A stretch of 64,000 nucleotides of DNA, taken from NCBI GenBank assembly GCA_963702845.1, contig OY969763.1, forward strand, positions 3,840,001-3,904,000. Direction: 5' to 3'. Made by a program: the position numbers. Shown piece by piece: positions 24,001 through 45,000 of this stretch. Position 1 is the stretch's first letter, and every line of letters starts with the position of its first letter. This DNA is from an uncultured Verrucomicrobiae bacterium. GTDB lineage: Bacteria > Verrucomicrobiota > Verrucomicrobiia > Limisphaerales > Palsa-1400.

Positions 24001-27000
24001 AGAAGTTTGCGTTCACGGAACGCACGGGAAAATTTTTAATGTGGCCATCGGCATACAGTTCGGATGAGGAATTGATGAAAAATTATGTGCGGCATGAAAG
24101 CCAGGAGTTTCGGTCCTTCGAGGAAGGCCTTTGTTGCACAGAGGTCGGCGGCAAATGGGGATTTGTGCACGATAATGGGAAGCTGGAGATCGCGCCGCAG
24201 TTTGAGGATGTGTGGCCGTTTCACGAGGGGTATGCGTGGGTGAAAAAGGACGGCAAGTGGGGATCGATCGGGCACAACGGCAAATTTGAGATCCAGCCGC
24301 GCTATGAGGAAGGCTCGGTATTCCGTTCGGGTTACGCGCGCATCAAAAGCGGTGGTAAATGGGGTTTTGTGAACAAAAGCGGCAAAGAGTTCGTGGCGCC
24401 GATTTATGATGATGTGTCGAATTTTCGCGATGGTTTTGCGGCGGTGAAGTTTCACGGCAGGTGGGGTTTTATACAATCAAGCAACGGCAAGTCAGTGATT
24501 GTCGCGGATTATGAAGATGCGTTGCCGTTCCGTGATCGGGTGGCAGCGGTAAAAAAGGAGGGTAAGTGGGGCTATGTCGATTCGTCCGGGAAGCTGACGA
24601 TTCAGCCGCAGTTTGAAGAGGCACTCGGATTTTGCGACGGTTTGGCGGCAGTGAAGAAGGATGGGAAATGGGGGTTTATCAACAAGTCAGGTGCATTCTC
24701 TGTACAGCCGCAATTTGAAGATGCGTGGTCGTTTCGCGATGGTTTTGCCGCCGTGAAAAGCCACGGCAAATGGGGCTACTTGACTGGCGAAGGAAAAATG
24801 TCGATTGAGCCGAAGTTTGATGAGGCATGGAATTTCCAAAACAATTACGCGGCGGTGAAGGTGAACGGCAAATGGGGTTATGTCGGGCGATATAGTAAAA
24901 CGAAGTTGGCGATTGCACCGCAGTTCGAGGAAGCTTGGCCCTTCAATCAAGGTTTTGCGCCAGTAAAAAAGGATGGCAAATGGGGTTATATCCGGACGGA
25001 TGGAAAATTCCGAATCCCGCCAGTTTATGACCACGCGTGGAGATTTGAAGGATTAGCGCCTGTGAAATTTCAGGGCAAATGGGGATTGCTGCGTGATAAT
25101 GGAGAAATGGTCTACGGGTGGTAGCAGGAACAAAGGCTAAAGGATGAAAAGCCGAACATCCACCACGATCATCCAACGGAAATACGCTGCAAGGCGGCGC
25201 AATGCTATCTAGTTTAGGGCGACGCCGCGGCGGATGTAGGTGGGCATGTCCAAATCTTCGCCGCCTCTGATCGTTGGCTCGCTTTTATCGAAGCGGCCTT
25301 TGCTCACAATCTCCAGCGGCAATTCTTTTTGTAGGCGTGAGATTTTTTTCCGGCTGCGCTTGCCTCCGGCGGCGAGGATTTGGTCGCGGGCTTCGGTCGT
25401 GAGTTCAGGGACGGGAGCAACGACGCGTGAGATTGGGCGTTCGGTTTTTGCTGGATCGAGAAATTGCGGGCGATCCAGGCCGAGTGGAGTTGCGCCGGTT
25501 TGGACGCGATCGCTGGTTAAGCCGGGTTCCGGTTTAAGGTCGAGTTTCGGGTTGCGGCTGGCGATAAGGGTGAGGCCGATTTTGTCGGTGTAGGTTTCGT
25601 TGATGCTTGCGCCGAATACCAAATTTGCTTTCTCACAATGACGGTTGATCTGGGTCATCAAACGTTGGACCTGGCCCATGGAAAGATCAGGGCCACCAAC
25701 GAGGCTGACGAGCACGGCGTCGGATTGGGCGAGGACTTCGCCGGCATCCAGGAGCGGGTGCGCGAGAAGTTTTTCGATGACCTGATCGACGCGGCTGTCG
25801 CCAATGCCTTCGACGATTGCAAAGGCACTTTCGGCGTGGCGCGCACGGGTAACGCTGCAAAGGTCGGCGAAATCGACGGGCTTGAGCGCGCTATCGGTGA
25901 GCAGTCGCCAGACACCGCGGACGGCATCGGCGAGCATTTCGTTGCTGGTGTTGAACAGCTCAACGAAGCTCGTATTTTCGTCGAGAATTTTGAAAAGTTT
26001 TTGATTCGGCAGGCAGATGACGGCGTCGGCTGCGGCTGTAAGCGATTGCAGACCGGCTTGAGCCTGTGCCTGACGGCGCATGCCTTCGAAATCGAACGGC
26101 GTGGTGACGATGGCGAGGACGAGTGCGCCGTTTTCTTTAGCGGCCTGGGCAAGGACAGAAGCTGCGCCGGTGCCAGTCCCGCCGCCAAGTCCGCACAGGA
26201 TGAAGACGAGGTCAGCGTCAGTGCAAAGCGACCTGAGATTTTGCAGATCGTCTTGAGCGACGGCACGGCCGAGATCGGGATCGCCACCCGTCCCCATACC
26301 GCGAGTACGACGAGTGCCTAAAGTGATTTTGTTTTGAACGGTCGATTTGTCGAGCGCCTGGGAATCCGTGTTCAGGGCGTAGAAGGTGCCGTTGAAATTG
26401 GAACGCGCGAGGTGGTCGGCAGCGTTGCAGCCGGCGCCGCCGATGCCGAAAATTTTGGCGGTCAAGACACGCGGGCCGGGTGCGGGTGCGGGAGCTGCGG
26501 GAGCCGGTGCGCTTGGCGTTTGATCGAACGACGTTGTCGATTCGGGTGCCGTGATTTCGGGAGATTGGTCGATCATAGTGTGGTCTCCTCTTTATTTACG
26601 GAAAATTTCGTCCCAGGCGGTTTTTATGCCGTCGACGACGCCGCCGGGTTTGCGTTTGCGTTTTTGTTGGAACGAACCGAAACGGACCAAACCAATGGCC
26701 GTGGCGAATTCGGGCTGATCGAGAGCTGACTTGAGACCGCTGATTGAATTGCTGCTGCCGCGCGAAACCGGCATATCGAAAACGCTCTCAGCAAGGGTCT
26801 GAATGTGCGAAATGCGCGCACCGCCGCCAGCGAGAAAGACGCCGGCACGAACGTAATTTAGCAGGCCAAGTTCGGAAAGTTCTTGTTCGATGAGTTCAAA
26901 AATTTCTTCGAGGCGCAAGGACATGATGCGGCGCAGGTGCTCGACGTTGATCGTCTTGGAAGGCAGGCCGAGTTCGTTCGGCAGCGAAATTTTTTGGCCT

Positions 27001-42000: not shown

Positions 42001-45000
42001 TCTGCGAGGTCCTGCGGAACGCAAATACGCCCCGCACTGTCTAAAGCCACTTGGGCCGACTGACTGCCGATCTGGCGTTTCAATGAGCCGCGCTTATCAG
42101 CCGGCATCGCGTCCAGTTCAGCCATTAACTTGGCCATTTCGGTTGGAGGCAGGACTCTCAAACACACCCCCGCTTTGTGTCTTGGCCAAACAATGAGCGT
42201 AAATTCCGTGCCAGGCTTCGACGGGCGCCATTTAGACGGGATTTGCACACGTCGCTTCTCGTCCACCCCGTGGCGATATCGCGAATTGTATACGCAAATC
42301 TCATTTGTAGGTTCGGTAGCCATATCGGCATTTACTCCACACTCTGCCCCACTTCACTACTTTCTGCCCCACCTTTATCCACGATACGACACTTTGCGTC
42401 AACTATTTTGTTATCAAAAAATCAGGAAATCTTATCCCCAAGTTATTCACAACCGATACTGGGGGAAAACCGATCAACTCGGCTTTTGGAAGTGAACTCT
42501 ACTTTTTCGGTCGGAAACCGGGCGGAAGATTGGATTTTGCGGCTAGTTCCGAGTCTTCCGCGACTGCGGGTGCAACAGAGGCTGTGGTTTCTTCTGCGGC
42601 AGATTCGACAGCAACAGCTTCTTCCGGCAAACCCAATTTTTGGCGAGCTTTTTTCGCAGCCGACGTTTGCGGATGCTCGGAGGTGATGCGGTGGAGCAGC
42701 GCCTGCATTTTATCCTGCTGGCCCAGCTTTGCGTAGATATTACACAGATGAATCGCAGCTTTACCCCAATGTTCCGGCGGCAATTTCTGTTTTATCACTT
42801 CTTCGTATTCGAGTGCCGCGGCGAGCGGGTTCTTGAGATCTTTCTCGTAAATTTCAGCGATGCGCAAGGCAACGTATTGTTCGCGCGGATTTTTCTTCAA
42901 GTAATCGCGCATGAGCTGAATTGCCTCGAGATGATTGCCGTTGGCCCATACTTGCTCGGCGTGTTCGTATTCGGGATCGCGCTGGCCTTCGCCGTTGTCG
43001 TTGAATAGAAAATCGACCGCTTGGTTTCCCATGTATTGGGTCACGTCGTAGGCTATCAACAGCCCGAGCAATATCGCACTGATGATAAACGCGGCCAGAG
43101 AACCCATAACGGAACCACCAGTGGCATGTGTAGCAACTTTTGTCTCGTCGTGTGATGCTTTCTTGGATGCGGCATTGGTCGCCGATGGTTGATTCGTAGT
43201 TTGAGCGGCGGCCACGATGTTGGTTGTGCCGTCCGCATTCGTCGTGACGCTAGTCGTGTTAGTGTCGGCGACCGCGTTCGTTGGTTCTACCACAACAACA
43301 TTCGTTTCATCGATGGGCGCCCGGGCGATAGGCATGCTCTTGTAATTGTGATAGAAGCCATAGGCGAACCAGATGACCAGGAACACCAATACCGGATATA
43401 GGTATAATTTGAGCTTCTCGAGCATGTGCTGTCTGTAAATGAAACAACATTTTGAAAAAACACAAAGGGTTTTTCGACGCACACCCCCCACTGGCAAAAT
43501 CCGAAATCCGAAATTCGAAGCACGAAATGATGAATTTTAGGTTAGAGAGTCGCCATCTTGTCTCGTACATTCCCAGTGAGTGCGCACCGCCGATTTTAAC
43601 TTTGAATTACCGCCAGAATTGATCGCGCAAAAGCCAATGCCGGCGCGCGACCAGTCGAGACTTTGTGTGCTGGACCACAAAACAGGCGAGATTCTGCATC
43701 GCCGCTTCCCTGATTTGCTCGAATATTTGAAAGCAGGCGATGTGCTGGTGCTGAACGACTCGCGGGTCATCCCTGCACGGCTGCGGGCCGTGAACCCGAA
43801 AACGGGTGGGCATTTTGAAGTGCTGCTTCTAGAAGAAGTCTCACCGAACAATTGGTGGGCGATGATGAAACCGGGCAAACGCGCTCCAATTGGCACACGG
43901 ATACAACTGCTCGATCTACAAAAACAGCCCACGCCGATCGAGGCGGTCGTGGAAGAAGTGAACAGCGAAGGCCATCGCCGCCTGCGTTTCGAGCACACGC
44001 CAAATATTCTGAACGAGCTCGATCGACTCGGCGAAGTGCCAGTGCCGCCATATATTGAACGCGCGGCGCCACAGTCCGAAGATCGCGAGCGATATCAAAC
44101 AGTTTACGCGCATGACGCGGGTTCAGTGGCAGCGCCGACTGCCGGCCTGCATTTTACCAACGAACTGCTAGAACGAGTTCGAGAGCGCGGGGTCAAAGTC
44201 TGTTTCGTCACATTGCACGTTGGCCTGGGCACATTCGCGCCGGTTAAAGCCGATAGCTTGGAAGAGCACATCATGCACGAGGAGCGGTTCAACATCAGTC
44301 CAGAGAGTGCTGAATTAATTAATGCGAGCGAACGCGTGGTTGCAGTGGGAACGACCACCCTTCGGGTCCTGGAAAGCGTCGCGCAACAAAACAATGGCAA
44401 CACTGTTCCGGGAAACGGCAGAACGAGAATTTTTATTTTCCCACCGTTTGAATTCAAAGTCGTGGACGCGCTCGTCACCAACTTCCATCTCCCCAGCTCC
44501 ACATTATTGATGTTAGTCAGCGCCTTTGCAGCACCCACGGAGACGCGCGGACGCAATTTGATGATGGGAACTTATGAAGAAGCGATTCGCGAACGTTACC
44601 GTTTTTTCAGTTACGGAGATGCGATGCTGATTAAGTGATTGTCTCGGGACCCGAAAGCTTTTCATCAGCCTCAACTCGTCGCGCCATCAACCAGAGCACG
44701 TCAGATAATCGGTTTAGGAAAACGATTATCTCCGGGTTTTCCAGAGACTTGTTTTCATGCAAATGACACGCTTGCCTCTCTGCGCGACGGCACATGGTGC
44801 GAGCGACATCCAACGCAGCGGATGACGGGTTTTTGCCGGGAATAACCCAATCGTTGAAAACCAAACCGGCGCCTTCGAGTTCTTTCGCGAACGTGTCCAA
44901 CTTGGCAGTCATGCTTGTAGTCACAACAGAAAACCCGTCCTTCTTAAATCGTTCGAGGTCCTCTGTTTTGGTGGCGAGTTCGCCCATGAGTGCGATGAGA

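What a model noticed while it worked through the whole genome (the two positions that open the first line are those of the whole stretch)
25209..42323. Peptidoglycan stem-peptide ligases MurC, MurD, MurE (and MurI) are lost from the dcw cluster; the recycling ligase Mpl i [...]
The dcw cluster runs ftsI-murF-mraY-lysM-ftsW-murG-murB-ddl-ftsQAZ with murE, murD and murC missing, and none is found elsewhere in this one-contig genome. murA, murB, murF, ddl, mraY, murG and a full-length mpl (C1:660617-662014) are kept. The loss is shared by the family and about half of the order; predicted (inference): these large-genome bacteria build their wall from salvaged stem peptides, or from a tripeptide made by an unknown route.
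Evidence so far: Own genome: murE and murC models hit only murF, folC and mpl, below cut-off; gene order (210). Relatives: murD in 10 of 41 and murE in 8 of 41, both 0 of 24 in the family; mpl 39 of 41, 22 of 24 in the family (74, 77, 78). Order: murE in 53 of 101, 52 of 99 well-completed genomes (211); murD over cut-off in 23 of 41 (68). Glutamate racemase in 10 of 41, all in genomes with murD, one only partial (80). Of 80 nearest murF loci: 46 without murE and murD, 13 without murE but with murD, 4 with both, 17 cut by contig ends on one side (103, 106), which suggests stepwise loss. Controls rang in 10 of 14 named genomes (211). Paper searches 75, 76, 100 (listings) and passages of PMC8406291 (212) did no [...]
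(Added by a program. Inside this text positions count along the whole contig: contig position 3,840,001 is position 1 of the stretch shown here. "Call 12" and the like, gene names such as g00115 and contig names such as C1 are that model's own, and its searches are not shown. The text may have been shortened before it was handed on; [...] marks where a part breaks off. The agent that wrote the report below was given it as the finding of a first reader that could run no searches.)

Follow-up and report, generated by a model that had tools for sequence, protein, structure and literature searches.

The report
Cell wall built without MurC/D/E
A large group of soil, water and hot-spring bacteria has repeatedly lost three enzymes thought essential for making the cell-wall peptide; many carry a previously unrecognised three-gene set that probably makes the peptide another way, while the genome studied here lacks even that and may scavenge it.

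Summary
Confirmed. The window's dcw cluster lacks murE, murD and murC, and this one-contig genome has only three Mur-ligase genes (murF, mpl, folC). The loss is specific to the order Limisphaerales: murE is in 100 of 103 other class genomes, but murC is in only 62 of 161 order genomes. It happened about 13-15 times, murC first, with dead MurE/MurD relics. The rest of the pathway and a canonical Mpl stay conserved.

Obligate salvage cannot be the general answer. All 4 Limisphaera genomes searched lack murCDE, AmpG and Opp, yet members of the genus grow in pure culture on mineral medium. Their alanine racemase sits between a PurD-like ATP-grasp ligase and an Ate1/Bpt-like aminoacyl-tRNA transferase. 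One or both flanking genes occur in 60 of 99 murC-less genomes and 0 of 62 murC-bearing ones.

Best reading (inferred): the cassette makes the free stem tripeptide de novo and Mpl loads it onto UDP-MurNAc, replacing MurC/D/E. The window's genome lacks the cassette but has AmpG, NagZ, AnmK, MurQ and Opp, so it may be a secondary stem-peptide scavenger. No enzyme was assayed, and nine paper searches found no report of this.

The parts
41859..42323 (-). mraZ
   Evidence: TIGR00242 E 9e-19
40881..41855 (-). 324-aa low-complexity ORF between mraZ and rsmH; no family
   Evidence: No NCBIfam or Pfam hit; weak similarity to ORFs at the same place in some relatives
39808..40770 (-). rsmH (mraW)
   Evidence: TIGR00006 over cut-off
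39357..39722 (-). ftsL-like, by position
   Evidence: Conserved at this place in relatives; no family hit
37221..39179 (-). ftsI (class B PBP); start codon uncertain
   Evidence: PBP families; conserved columns 99% retained in this clade
36973..37220 (-). Empty murE slot: 78-aa ORF (37209-36973) whose stop overlaps the murF ATG; no MurE remnant
   Evidence: Sequence; remnant searches negative
35588..36973 (-). murF, intact
   Evidence: TIGR01143 424.7 bits, cut-off 288.6; 71 of 75 conserved columns kept
34436..35587 (-). mraY
   Evidence: TIGR00445 over cut-off; 117 of 122 conserved columns kept
34036..34435 (.). Empty murD slot, 400 bp
   Evidence: Sequence; murD lies here in full-set relatives
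33196..34035 (-). LysM-domain protein, a normal member of this cluster in the order
   Evidence: LysM-type hits; present in nearly all order loci
31835..32981 (-). ftsW, split by one frameshift near 32600-32720 (probably a sequencing error)
   Evidence: Two frames match RodA/FtsW; whole in relatives
30649..31842 (-). murG
   Evidence: TIGR01133 over cut-off
29724..30656 (-). murB standing alone; the MurC half of the ancestral MurC-MurB fusion is deleted and the start overlaps the murG stop
   Evidence: TIGR00179 over cut-off; fusion of 778-872 aa in relatives; sequence
28761..29720 (-). ddl
   Evidence: TIGR01205 over cut-off
27805..28761 (-). ftsQ
   Evidence: NF004039 weak; synteny
26592..27812 (-). 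ftsA
   Evidence: TIGR01174 over cut-off
25209..26576 (-). ftsZ
   Evidence: TIGR00065 277.7 bits

Best explanation
In Limisphaerales the stem peptide has repeatedly been moved off the MurC-MurD-MurE assembly line. MurA/B still make UDP-MurNAc, and the universal Mpl joins a ready-made free peptide to it in one step. MurF, Ddl, MraY, MurG and the PBP/SEDS machines then work as usual. Shown: gene content, conservation, and Mpl signature residues. In most lineages the peptide is made de novo by a three-gene cassette: a PurD-fold ATP-grasp ligase, an Alr-fold racemase and an Ate1/Bpt-fold aminoacyl-tRNA transferase. Shown: the operon, the folds, and exclusivity with murC. Inferred chemistry, most likely: the ligase forms the gamma-glutamyl bond to meso-DAP (or another diamino acid). 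The racemase supplies D-Ala and perhaps sets the D-configuration of the glutamyl residue. The transferase, whose relatives acylate N-terminal Asp/Glu, adds L-Ala from Ala-tRNA. That gives two bond-formers for the tripeptide's two bonds. murC goes first because it competes with Mpl for UDP-MurNAc and would leave dead-end intermediates (inferred); MurD and MurE then decay. A subset, including the window's genome, has lost or never had the cassette. These carry a long AmpG, here with NagZ, AnmK, a MurK-MurQ fusion, Opp and exported amidases, and are predicted stem-peptide scavengers (about 0.5 for this genome). The exact substrate assignment is about 0.35.
For: Cassette gene(s) in 60 of 99 murC-less and 0 of 62 murC-bearing genomes; both genes in 54; spaced one racemase-sized gap apart (1.13-1.60 kb, same strand) in 37 of those 54; present in 11 of 15 independent murC-loss lineages. 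Full operon read directly in L287, L288 and L296. The ligase keeps the GAR-synthetase fold (pLDDT 87.8, TM 0.80, 21% identity) but falls far below the PurD cut-off (107 vs 288) and has PurD's GSGGREH, DHKR and GDPE motifs changed to GVGSFAH-type, NQEYK (65 of 65) and GVTS. The transferase has ATE_C, a GNAT-type fold close to Ate1/Bpt and the Tyr-Lys pair that Ate1 needs; Bpt and Ate1 recognise N-terminal Asp/Glu and are related to FemX (PMC9351520, passages). Mpl is in 159 of 161 genomes, passes TIGR01081 (470 vs 389) and keeps 13 of 15 peptide-binding residues named in PMC3060825. MurB, MurF, Ddl, MraY, MurG, FtsW and FtsI mostly keep 92-100% of conserved columns in the loss lineages (lowest 74-88% in one long-branch genome). 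Limisphaera lacks known importers and grows pure on mineral medium; a protein named for L. ngatamarikiensis is in the ligase family (P0135). The long AmpG is in 0 of 62 murC-bearing genomes and in 21 of the 39 genomes lacking both murC and cassette.
Against: All of this is genomic; no substrate was tested. The window's own genome has no cassette, and 18 murC-less genomes have neither cassette nor long AmpG (some are probably assembly gaps). No cytoplasmic AmpD or LdcA was found in the window's genome, which weakens muropeptide salvage there. The cassette racemase is the only strong Alr in Limisphaera, so it must make D-Ala, and the D-Glu source stays open. I could not check that cassette genomes keep a separate canonical purD. 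Kin are not independent, and the loss count rests on one FastTree tree with weak inner nodes. The cultured strains are tied to the loss at genus level only.
Confidence: 0.6

Rival explanations
1. The cassette does replace MurC/D/E but builds the peptide on the nucleotide or lipid carrier, or builds a non-canonical stem. For example, Mpl adds L-Ala, the ATP-grasp enzyme extends UDP-MurNAc-L-Ala, and the transferase adds a residue or cross-bridge in the manner of FemX.
For: Same genomic pattern. Mpl accepts L-Ala weakly (0.7 vs 260 per min; PMC3060825). FemX-type enzymes act on UDP-MurNAc-peptides (PMC9351520). Ornithine and lysine in the Limisphaera wall are recalled from the species description, which was not available.
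Against: Mpl keeps the tripeptide-binding residue set unchanged in 21 of 21 order proteins examined for the motifs. MurF shows no convergent change in the loss lineages beyond 3 columns, of which the strongest also varies in outgroups.
Confidence: 0.15
2. All murCDE-less members are obligate salvagers of stem peptide from other bacteria, and the cassette is incidental.
For: An Opp-type binding protein in 28 of 34 genomes tested. AmpG-like genes in 41 of 85 murE-less against 7 of 72 murE-bearing genomes. A recycling kit in the window's genome.
Against: Limisphaera lacks both importers in 4 of 4 genomes and grows pure on mineral salts, vitamins and a sugar. Opp is as common in full-set genomes. 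Salvage does not explain a cassette found in 0 of 62 murC-bearing genomes.
Confidence: 0.08
3. The cassette has another job (a substitute purine enzyme, protein N-end tagging or a secondary metabolite) and merely travels with the loss lineages; the true supply route is still unseen.
For: Databases name the ligase phosphoribosylamine-glycine ligase. Canonical purD in cassette genomes is unchecked. The two flanking genes are not adjacent in 17 of 54 genomes.
Against: PurD substrate motifs are changed. The operon is centred on the only strong alanine racemase. Exclusivity with murC holds across 11 separate lineages.
Confidence: 0.09
4. Peptidoglycan is dispensable or vestigial in these cells, as for mur genes in Planctopirus, and the remaining genes are on the way out.
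For: Mur genes are non-essential in P. limnophila (PMC12283558, passages). Decayed MurE and MurD exist.
Against: Decay is confined to MurC/D/E. MurA, MurB, MurF, Ddl, MraY, MurG, FtsW and FtsI are kept and conserved, and the window's genome has a full mreB-mreC-pbp2-rodA cluster.
Confidence: 0.06
5. Assembly or annotation artefact.
For: Own completeness is 89.8%, with frameshifts in ftsW, alr and gatB.
Against: Closed junctions in 27 loci, few-contig genomes with the same state, and the class control of 100 of 103.
Confidence: 0.02

Closest known systems
Mpl recycling ligase (E. coli, Psychrobacter; PMC3060825)
   Same: Same family and signature residues; joins L-Ala-gamma-D-Glu-mDAP to UDP-MurNAc, bypassing MurC/D/E.
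   Different: There it is an accessory recycling enzyme beside MurC/D/E. Here it is the only route from UDP-MurNAc to a MurF substrate.
Canonical Verrucomicrobiota dcw cluster (V. spinosum; PMC12283558)
   Same: Same gene order, MurC-MurB fusion in full-set relatives.
   Different: murC, murD, murE and murI are essential in V. spinosum, and the paper states that the phylum encodes all dcw genes. About 60% of the Limisphaerales sampled lack murC.
PurD / GAR synthetase (ATP-grasp)
   Same: Fold (TM 0.80), ATP-grasp core, GARS_C domain.
   Different: About 21-25% identity, below family cut-off, substrate motifs changed, operon with racemase and tRNA transferase, never with murC.
Ate1 / Bpt aminoacyl-tRNA transferases and FemABX/FemX (PMC9351520)
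   Same: ATE_C/GNAT fold and the Tyr-Lys pair; tRNA-dependent peptide bonds are known in peptidoglycan cross-bridges.
   Different: No ATE_N domain detected and below arginyltransferase cut-offs. Proposed here to build the stem itself, not a branch or a protein N-end.
Xanthomonas MurD2/MurL and Chlamydia bifunctional DapF (recalled, no call)
   Same: Known ways to do without glutamate racemase.
   Different: They keep Mur ligases for every stem bond; here three ligases are gone.
Tannerella forsythia MurNAc auxotrophy (recalled, no call)
   Same: A wall precursor taken from neighbours through AmpG-type uptake.
   Different: It lacks MurA/B and keeps the ligases. The predicted scavengers here keep MurA/B and lack the peptide ligases.

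Membership tests
Mpl (TIGR01081) | Score over the curated cut-off and above MurC | tested here: met
   469.9 vs cut-off 388.7; MurC model 317.7, under its cut-off
Mpl (TIGR01081) | (S/T)AFFDKRSK motif and C-domain peptide-binding residues | tested here: met
   Motif present in 21 of 21 order proteins examined; 13 of 15 residues identical to Psychrobacter Mpl, two conservative changes
Mpl (TIGR01081) | Tripeptide ligase activity | not testable with these tools
   Needs an assay
Canonical Mur pathway | MurC, MurD and MurE present | tested here: not met
Canonical Mur pathway | MurA, MurB, MurF, Ddl, MraY, MurG, SEDS and class B PBPs present and conserved | tested here: met
PurD (TIGR00877), for the cassette ligase | Score over cut-off | tested here: not met
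   107.2 vs 288
PurD (TIGR00877), for the cassette ligase | GAR-synthetase fold | tested here: met
   Top 14 Foldseek rows are GAR synthetases, TM 0.69-0.80
PurD (TIGR00877), for the cassette ligase | GSGGREH, DHKR and GDPE motifs (their roles in substrate binding are recalled) | tested here: not met
   Present in the genome's own PurD; replaced in the 65-sequence alignment
PurD (TIGR00877), for the cassette ligase | A separate canonical purD exists in cassette genomes, making this a paralog | not tested
Ate1/Bpt transferases | ATE_C domain and catalytic Tyr-Lys pair | tested here: met
   PF04377 25.9 vs cut-off 25; YK motif in 3 of 3 sequences; structural neighbours
Ate1/Bpt transferases | ATE_N domain and arginyltransferase family score | tested here: not met
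   No PF04376 hit; best 52.8 vs 170
Alanine racemase (TIGR00492) | Score over cut-off with catalytic Lys and Tyr | tested here: met
   347.7 vs 168; KDDAYGHG and GYG..Y kept, GRVCMD-type motif changed to GGVAMD or GGTSMD
AmpG-type muropeptide recycling (window's genome) | AmpG, NagZ, AnmK and MurQ | tested here: inconclusive
   nagZ-like and ampG-like genes adjacent (nagZ named from recalled motifs), anmK and murQ found; AmpG scores 98 vs cut-off 350
AmpG-type muropeptide recycling (window's genome) | Cytoplasmic AmpD and LdcA | tested here: not met
   No phmmer hit with the E. coli proteins; two Amidase_2 proteins look exported and the third is a 1700-aa repeat protein

The most novel reading that the evidence does not exclude
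Limisphaerales evolved a second, unrelated way to make the peptidoglycan stem. A PurD-derived ATP-grasp ligase and a tRNA-dependent Ate1/Bpt-like transferase build the free tripeptide, and Mpl, promoted from recycling to the core pathway, loads it. The cassette spread sideways and displaced MurC/D/E more than ten times. It also opened a path to free-living, large-genome bacteria, such as the one in this window, that then lost it and live on stem peptides from other cells.
Probability: 0.45. Interest if true: 0.95.

Novelty: categorically new. Interest (0 to 1): 0.88.

Why it matters
MurC, MurD and MurE are treated as universal and essential in walled bacteria and are pursued as antibiotic targets. 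A route that replaces all three would be the first non-orthologous stem-peptide pathway I know of. It would add a tRNA-dependent step to the stem itself and give a function to two mis-annotated protein families. It also contradicts the published view that Verrucomicrobiota keep all dcw genes. It is directly testable, because cultured Limisphaera carry the ligase and the three genes can be expressed in laboratory E. coli. If the AmpG-bearing subset are peptide auxotrophs, adding wall fragments could help bring abundant uncultured soil bacteria into culture.

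Tried and rejected
1) Hidden or diverged Mur ligases: none by Pfam models, tblastn or local HMMs.
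2) A partner gene next to mpl: no shared neighbour across 21 loci. None next to the epimerase or murI either.
3) Mpl as a new acquisition: it is in 117 of 121 class genomes.
4) Changed specificity of MurF, Ddl, MraY, MurG, MurB, FtsW or FtsI: no convincing convergent columns.
5) An NRPS as the peptide source: condensation domains in 2 of 5 murCDE-less genomes.
6) The L-Ala-D/L-Glu epimerase as the universal D-Glu source: 109 of 161, missing from several loss genomes and common in full-set ones.
7) YbdK-type or ATP-grasp_4 ligases: no candidate in the window's genome.
8) Genes inserted in the empty slots are SIMPL/DUF541 or unrelated.
9) A blind comparison of 400 kb of G116 with the window's genome gave 168 shared genes and was not followed up.
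10) The cassette on mobile elements: no match in viral contigs or plasmids.
11) V. spinosum mpl essentiality could not be read: the supplement gives locus tags only and one file was too large.
13) No complex prediction and no read mapping were run.

Full report
OBSERVATION. The window holds a minus-strand dcw cluster: mraZ, a 324-aa orphan, rsmH, ftsL-like, ftsI, murF, mraY, lysM, ftsW, murG, murB, ddl, ftsQ, ftsA, ftsZ. The slots of murE, murD and murC are closed at 247 bp, 400 bp and an overlap. In full-set relatives murE precedes murF, murD follows mraY, and murC is fused to murB. In the whole 6.03-Mb contig the Mur-ligase middle and C-terminal models pass cut-off only at murF, mpl and folC. 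Twelve MurC/D/E proteins from relatives and HMMs from 40 MurC, 62 MurE and 77 MurD sequences find nothing else. MurI is not found with the E. coli protein, with PF01177 or with relatives' proteins. GC skew and tRNA content suggest a near-whole chromosome.

WHERE THE LOSS OCCURS. Record titles of relatives name Limisphaerales, Pedosphaera and subdivision 3 Verrucomicrobia. Among 161 order genomes (the window's own plus 160 at least 90% complete), MurC is found in 62, Mpl in 159 and MraY in 159; 72 have a MurE-strength Mur-ligase hit by my reading. As a control, murE passes cut-off in 100 of 103 genomes of the class outside the order and in 6 of 18 inside. Mpl is class-wide (117 of 121), so it is not the new element.

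COURSE OF THE LOSS. I fetched the cluster from 100 of the 160 relatives, chosen for flank length and family spread. With the window's own, the 101 states were: full 33, none 29, murD only 21, dead murE plus murD 6, murE plus murD 4, dead murE only 4 (plus G138, scored apart but with only a fragmentary murD match), murE only 2, and one cut locus with murD and murC. Four loci end at contig ends (G041, G057, G086, G157), so their states are partly unknown. No uncut locus has murC without murE and murD. Dead MurE proteins are mostly full length but have lost the P-loop and the DYAH motif; many lone MurD proteins have lost the Glu of the EVSSFQL motif. On a FastTree tree of eight markers rooted on two outside loci, Dollo counting gives 15 murC losses (13 after collapsing nodes under 0.95) and 14 (10) losses of intact murE. 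Long branches such as G008 may be misplaced. MurB, MurF, Ddl, MraY, MurG, FtsW and FtsI mostly keep 92-100% of the columns conserved in full-set genomes, with lower values only in the long-branch genomes. The window's genome also has murA and mreB-mreC-pbp2-rodA. The wall pathway is alive and only the three peptide ligases are released.

MPL. It passes TIGR01081 (470 vs 389), carries the AFFDKRSK signature, and matches 13 of the 15 peptide-binding residues listed for Psychrobacter Mpl (PMC3060825, passages; alignment). The motifs are the same in genomes with and without murCDE. That enzyme strongly prefers the meso-DAP tripeptide (260 per min against 0.7 for L-Ala and 1.4 for the dipeptide). 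So the cell needs a source of free peptide.

SALVAGE TESTED. AmpG-like genes are in 41 of 85 murE-less and 7 of 72 murE-bearing genomes, four ambiguous genomes set aside; three of the murE-bearing hits that I fetched fall in other clusters. An Opp-type binding protein is in 28 of 34 genomes chosen, with or without murCDE. All four genomes of genus g20 lack murCDE, AmpG and Opp but keep murA, alr, an amidase and the epimerase. Source names of FtsA relatives place g20 in Limisphaera at genus level. Cultured Limisphaera are pure cultures that need no yeast extract and grow on salts, trace elements, vitamins and a carbohydrate (PMC13608581, passages; PMC7193930, whole text). If they share the genus-wide loss, which I infer and did not read from their named genomes, they cannot be importing stem peptide.

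THE CANDIDATE ROUTE. Reading neighbourhoods of wall genes in Limisphaera, I found alr in the middle of a three-gene operon (L287, L288), repeated in metagenome locus L296. Gene 1 (429 aa) has weak GARS_A and GARS_C hits and scores 107 against PurD's cut-off of 288. Its model (pLDDT 87.8) has the GAR-synthetase fold at 21% identity. PurD's GSGGREH, DHKR and GDPE motifs read GVGSFAH-type, NQEYK and GVTS; their roles in binding phosphoribosylamine and glycine are recalled. Gene 2 is an alanine-racemase-family protein with the catalytic Lys and Tyr and an altered entry motif. Gene 3 (about 270-285 aa) has ATE_C, the Tyr-Lys pair and a fold near Ate1/Bpt. Ate1 and Bpt put an amino acid from tRNA on N-terminal Asp or Glu and are related to FemX (PMC9351520, passages). 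Across the 161 genomes the ligase is in 56, the transferase in 58, both in 54 and either in 60. None of the 60 has murC: 0 of 62 against 60 of 99. In 37 of the 54 the two genes lie on one strand 1.13-1.60 kb apart; in 17 they are apart or on different contigs. The cassette is in 11 of the 15 loss lineages, including genomes that still hold intact-looking murE or murD, so it is present from the first step. The ligase family is narrow and well separated from PurD. It includes a protein named for L. ngatamarikiensis and proteins named from Opitutae and Bdellovibrionales MAGs. It was not found in viral contigs or plasmids.

MECHANISM. Shown: mutual exclusion with murC, operon structure, folds, and an intact Mpl and downstream pathway. 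Inferred: a tripeptide has two bonds and the cassette has two bond-forming enzymes. The ATP-grasp enzyme most likely makes the gamma-glutamyl bond to the diamino acid; meso-DAP is available, since dapF is in 5 of 5 genomes tested. The transferase adds L-Ala to the N-terminal Glu, and Mpl loads the product. The racemase must supply D-Ala, being the only strong Alr in Limisphaera, and may also act on the glutamyl residue. D-Glu supply is open: PF01177 is missing even from 4 of 10 full-set genomes tested, and a bifunctional DapF is a recalled precedent. murC would go first because, once MurD or MurE fails, it drains UDP-MurNAc into dead ends.

THE WINDOW'S OWN GENOME. It has no cassette: profile searches return only the true purD. 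Two family members (G127, G155) have it and two (G037, G092) do not. Of 39 genomes lacking both murC and cassette, 21 carry a long AmpG (open frame of about 580 aa or more), a form seen in 0 of 62 murC-bearing genomes. Eighteen have neither, and several of those are probably assembly gaps. This genome has adjacent nagZ-like and ampG-like genes, anmK, a kinase-MurQ fusion, oppA/B/C, two exported Amidase_2 proteins and a lipoprotein-type racemase, but no AmpD or LdcA hit. I put salvage at about 0.5 for it, a third unseen route at about 0.35, and a cassette missing from the assembly at about 0.15.

WHAT IS KNOWN. PMC12283558 (passages, section 13 and searches of 10 supplements) reports murC, D, E and I essential in V. 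spinosum and states that Verrucomicrobiota encode all dcw genes. Of three order genus names searched, only Fontisphaera appears in its genome list. Its Figure 5 and one large supplement could not be seen and might bear on this. Nine paper searches (listings) and passages of PMC12714770, PMC5303756 and PMC8406291 showed no report of the loss or of the cassette. The library omits most subscription journals, including the L. ngatamarikiensis description.

VERDICT. A real, order-specific and repeated loss of MurC/D/E, with a strong candidate for a new de novo route through Mpl and a likely scavenging side branch that includes this genome. The chemistry is untested. Interest 0.88.

Noticed in passing
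L008, L009, L022, L110, L115, L120, L124, L128, L163, L166, L167, L168, L171, L176 (murE slot): MurE proteins, mostly full length, with dead P-loop and DYAH motif but a kept C-terminal GKG...PFDDR region in at least five families; possibly retained as a scaffold for MurF or for operon coupling.
   Followed up: partly
window 36973-37209 (-): A 78-aa ORF fills the murE slot and its stop overlaps the murF start; no similarity to MurE was seen.
   Followed up: no
window 40881-41855 (-): A 324-aa low-complexity ORF between mraZ and rsmH with no family; weakly similar ORFs sit at the same place in some relatives.
   Followed up: no
L013, L015, L016 and about a dozen G-handle loci, ftsI-murF or murE-murF gap: A SIMPL/DUF541 gene is inserted just before murF in both full-set and loss genomes.
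   Followed up: no
G121, G034, G090, G024: Genomes with full murCDE but no Asp/Glu racemase hit; their D-glutamate source is unexplained.
   Followed up: no
G000 C1:2931583-2932834 (+): The only alanine-racemase-like gene has a lipoprotein-type N-terminus, is frameshifted in the assembly, and is only about 27-38% identical to the Limisphaera racemase; how D-Ala reaches the cytoplasm is unclear.
   Followed up: partly
G000 C1:3658007-3659905 (-): A fusion of an N-acetyl-sugar kinase-like domain (named from recall) with MurQ, next to an NRPS gene.
   Followed up: no
class sample: Mpl is kept in 117 of 121 Verrucomicrobiae genomes, even at 1.3-2 Mb, although many order members lack AmpG; its substrate supply there is unexplained.
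   Followed up: no
G205, G245, G258: Three genomes outside the order lack a murE hit; they were not checked for the cassette.
   Followed up: no
P0402, P0273; ESM Atlas clusters: Ligase-family proteins named from Opitutae and Bdellovibrionales MAGs, and look-alike clusters labelled viral for both the ligase and the transferase, suggest a wider spread.
   Followed up: partly
window 46450-48574 (-): The long PVC-type GreA fusion is split into two ORFs, probably by a frameshift error.
   Followed up: no
window 23334-25124 (+): A protein with many short repeats of the KWG type (recognised from recall) convergent on ftsZ; no NCBIfam hit.
   Followed up: no
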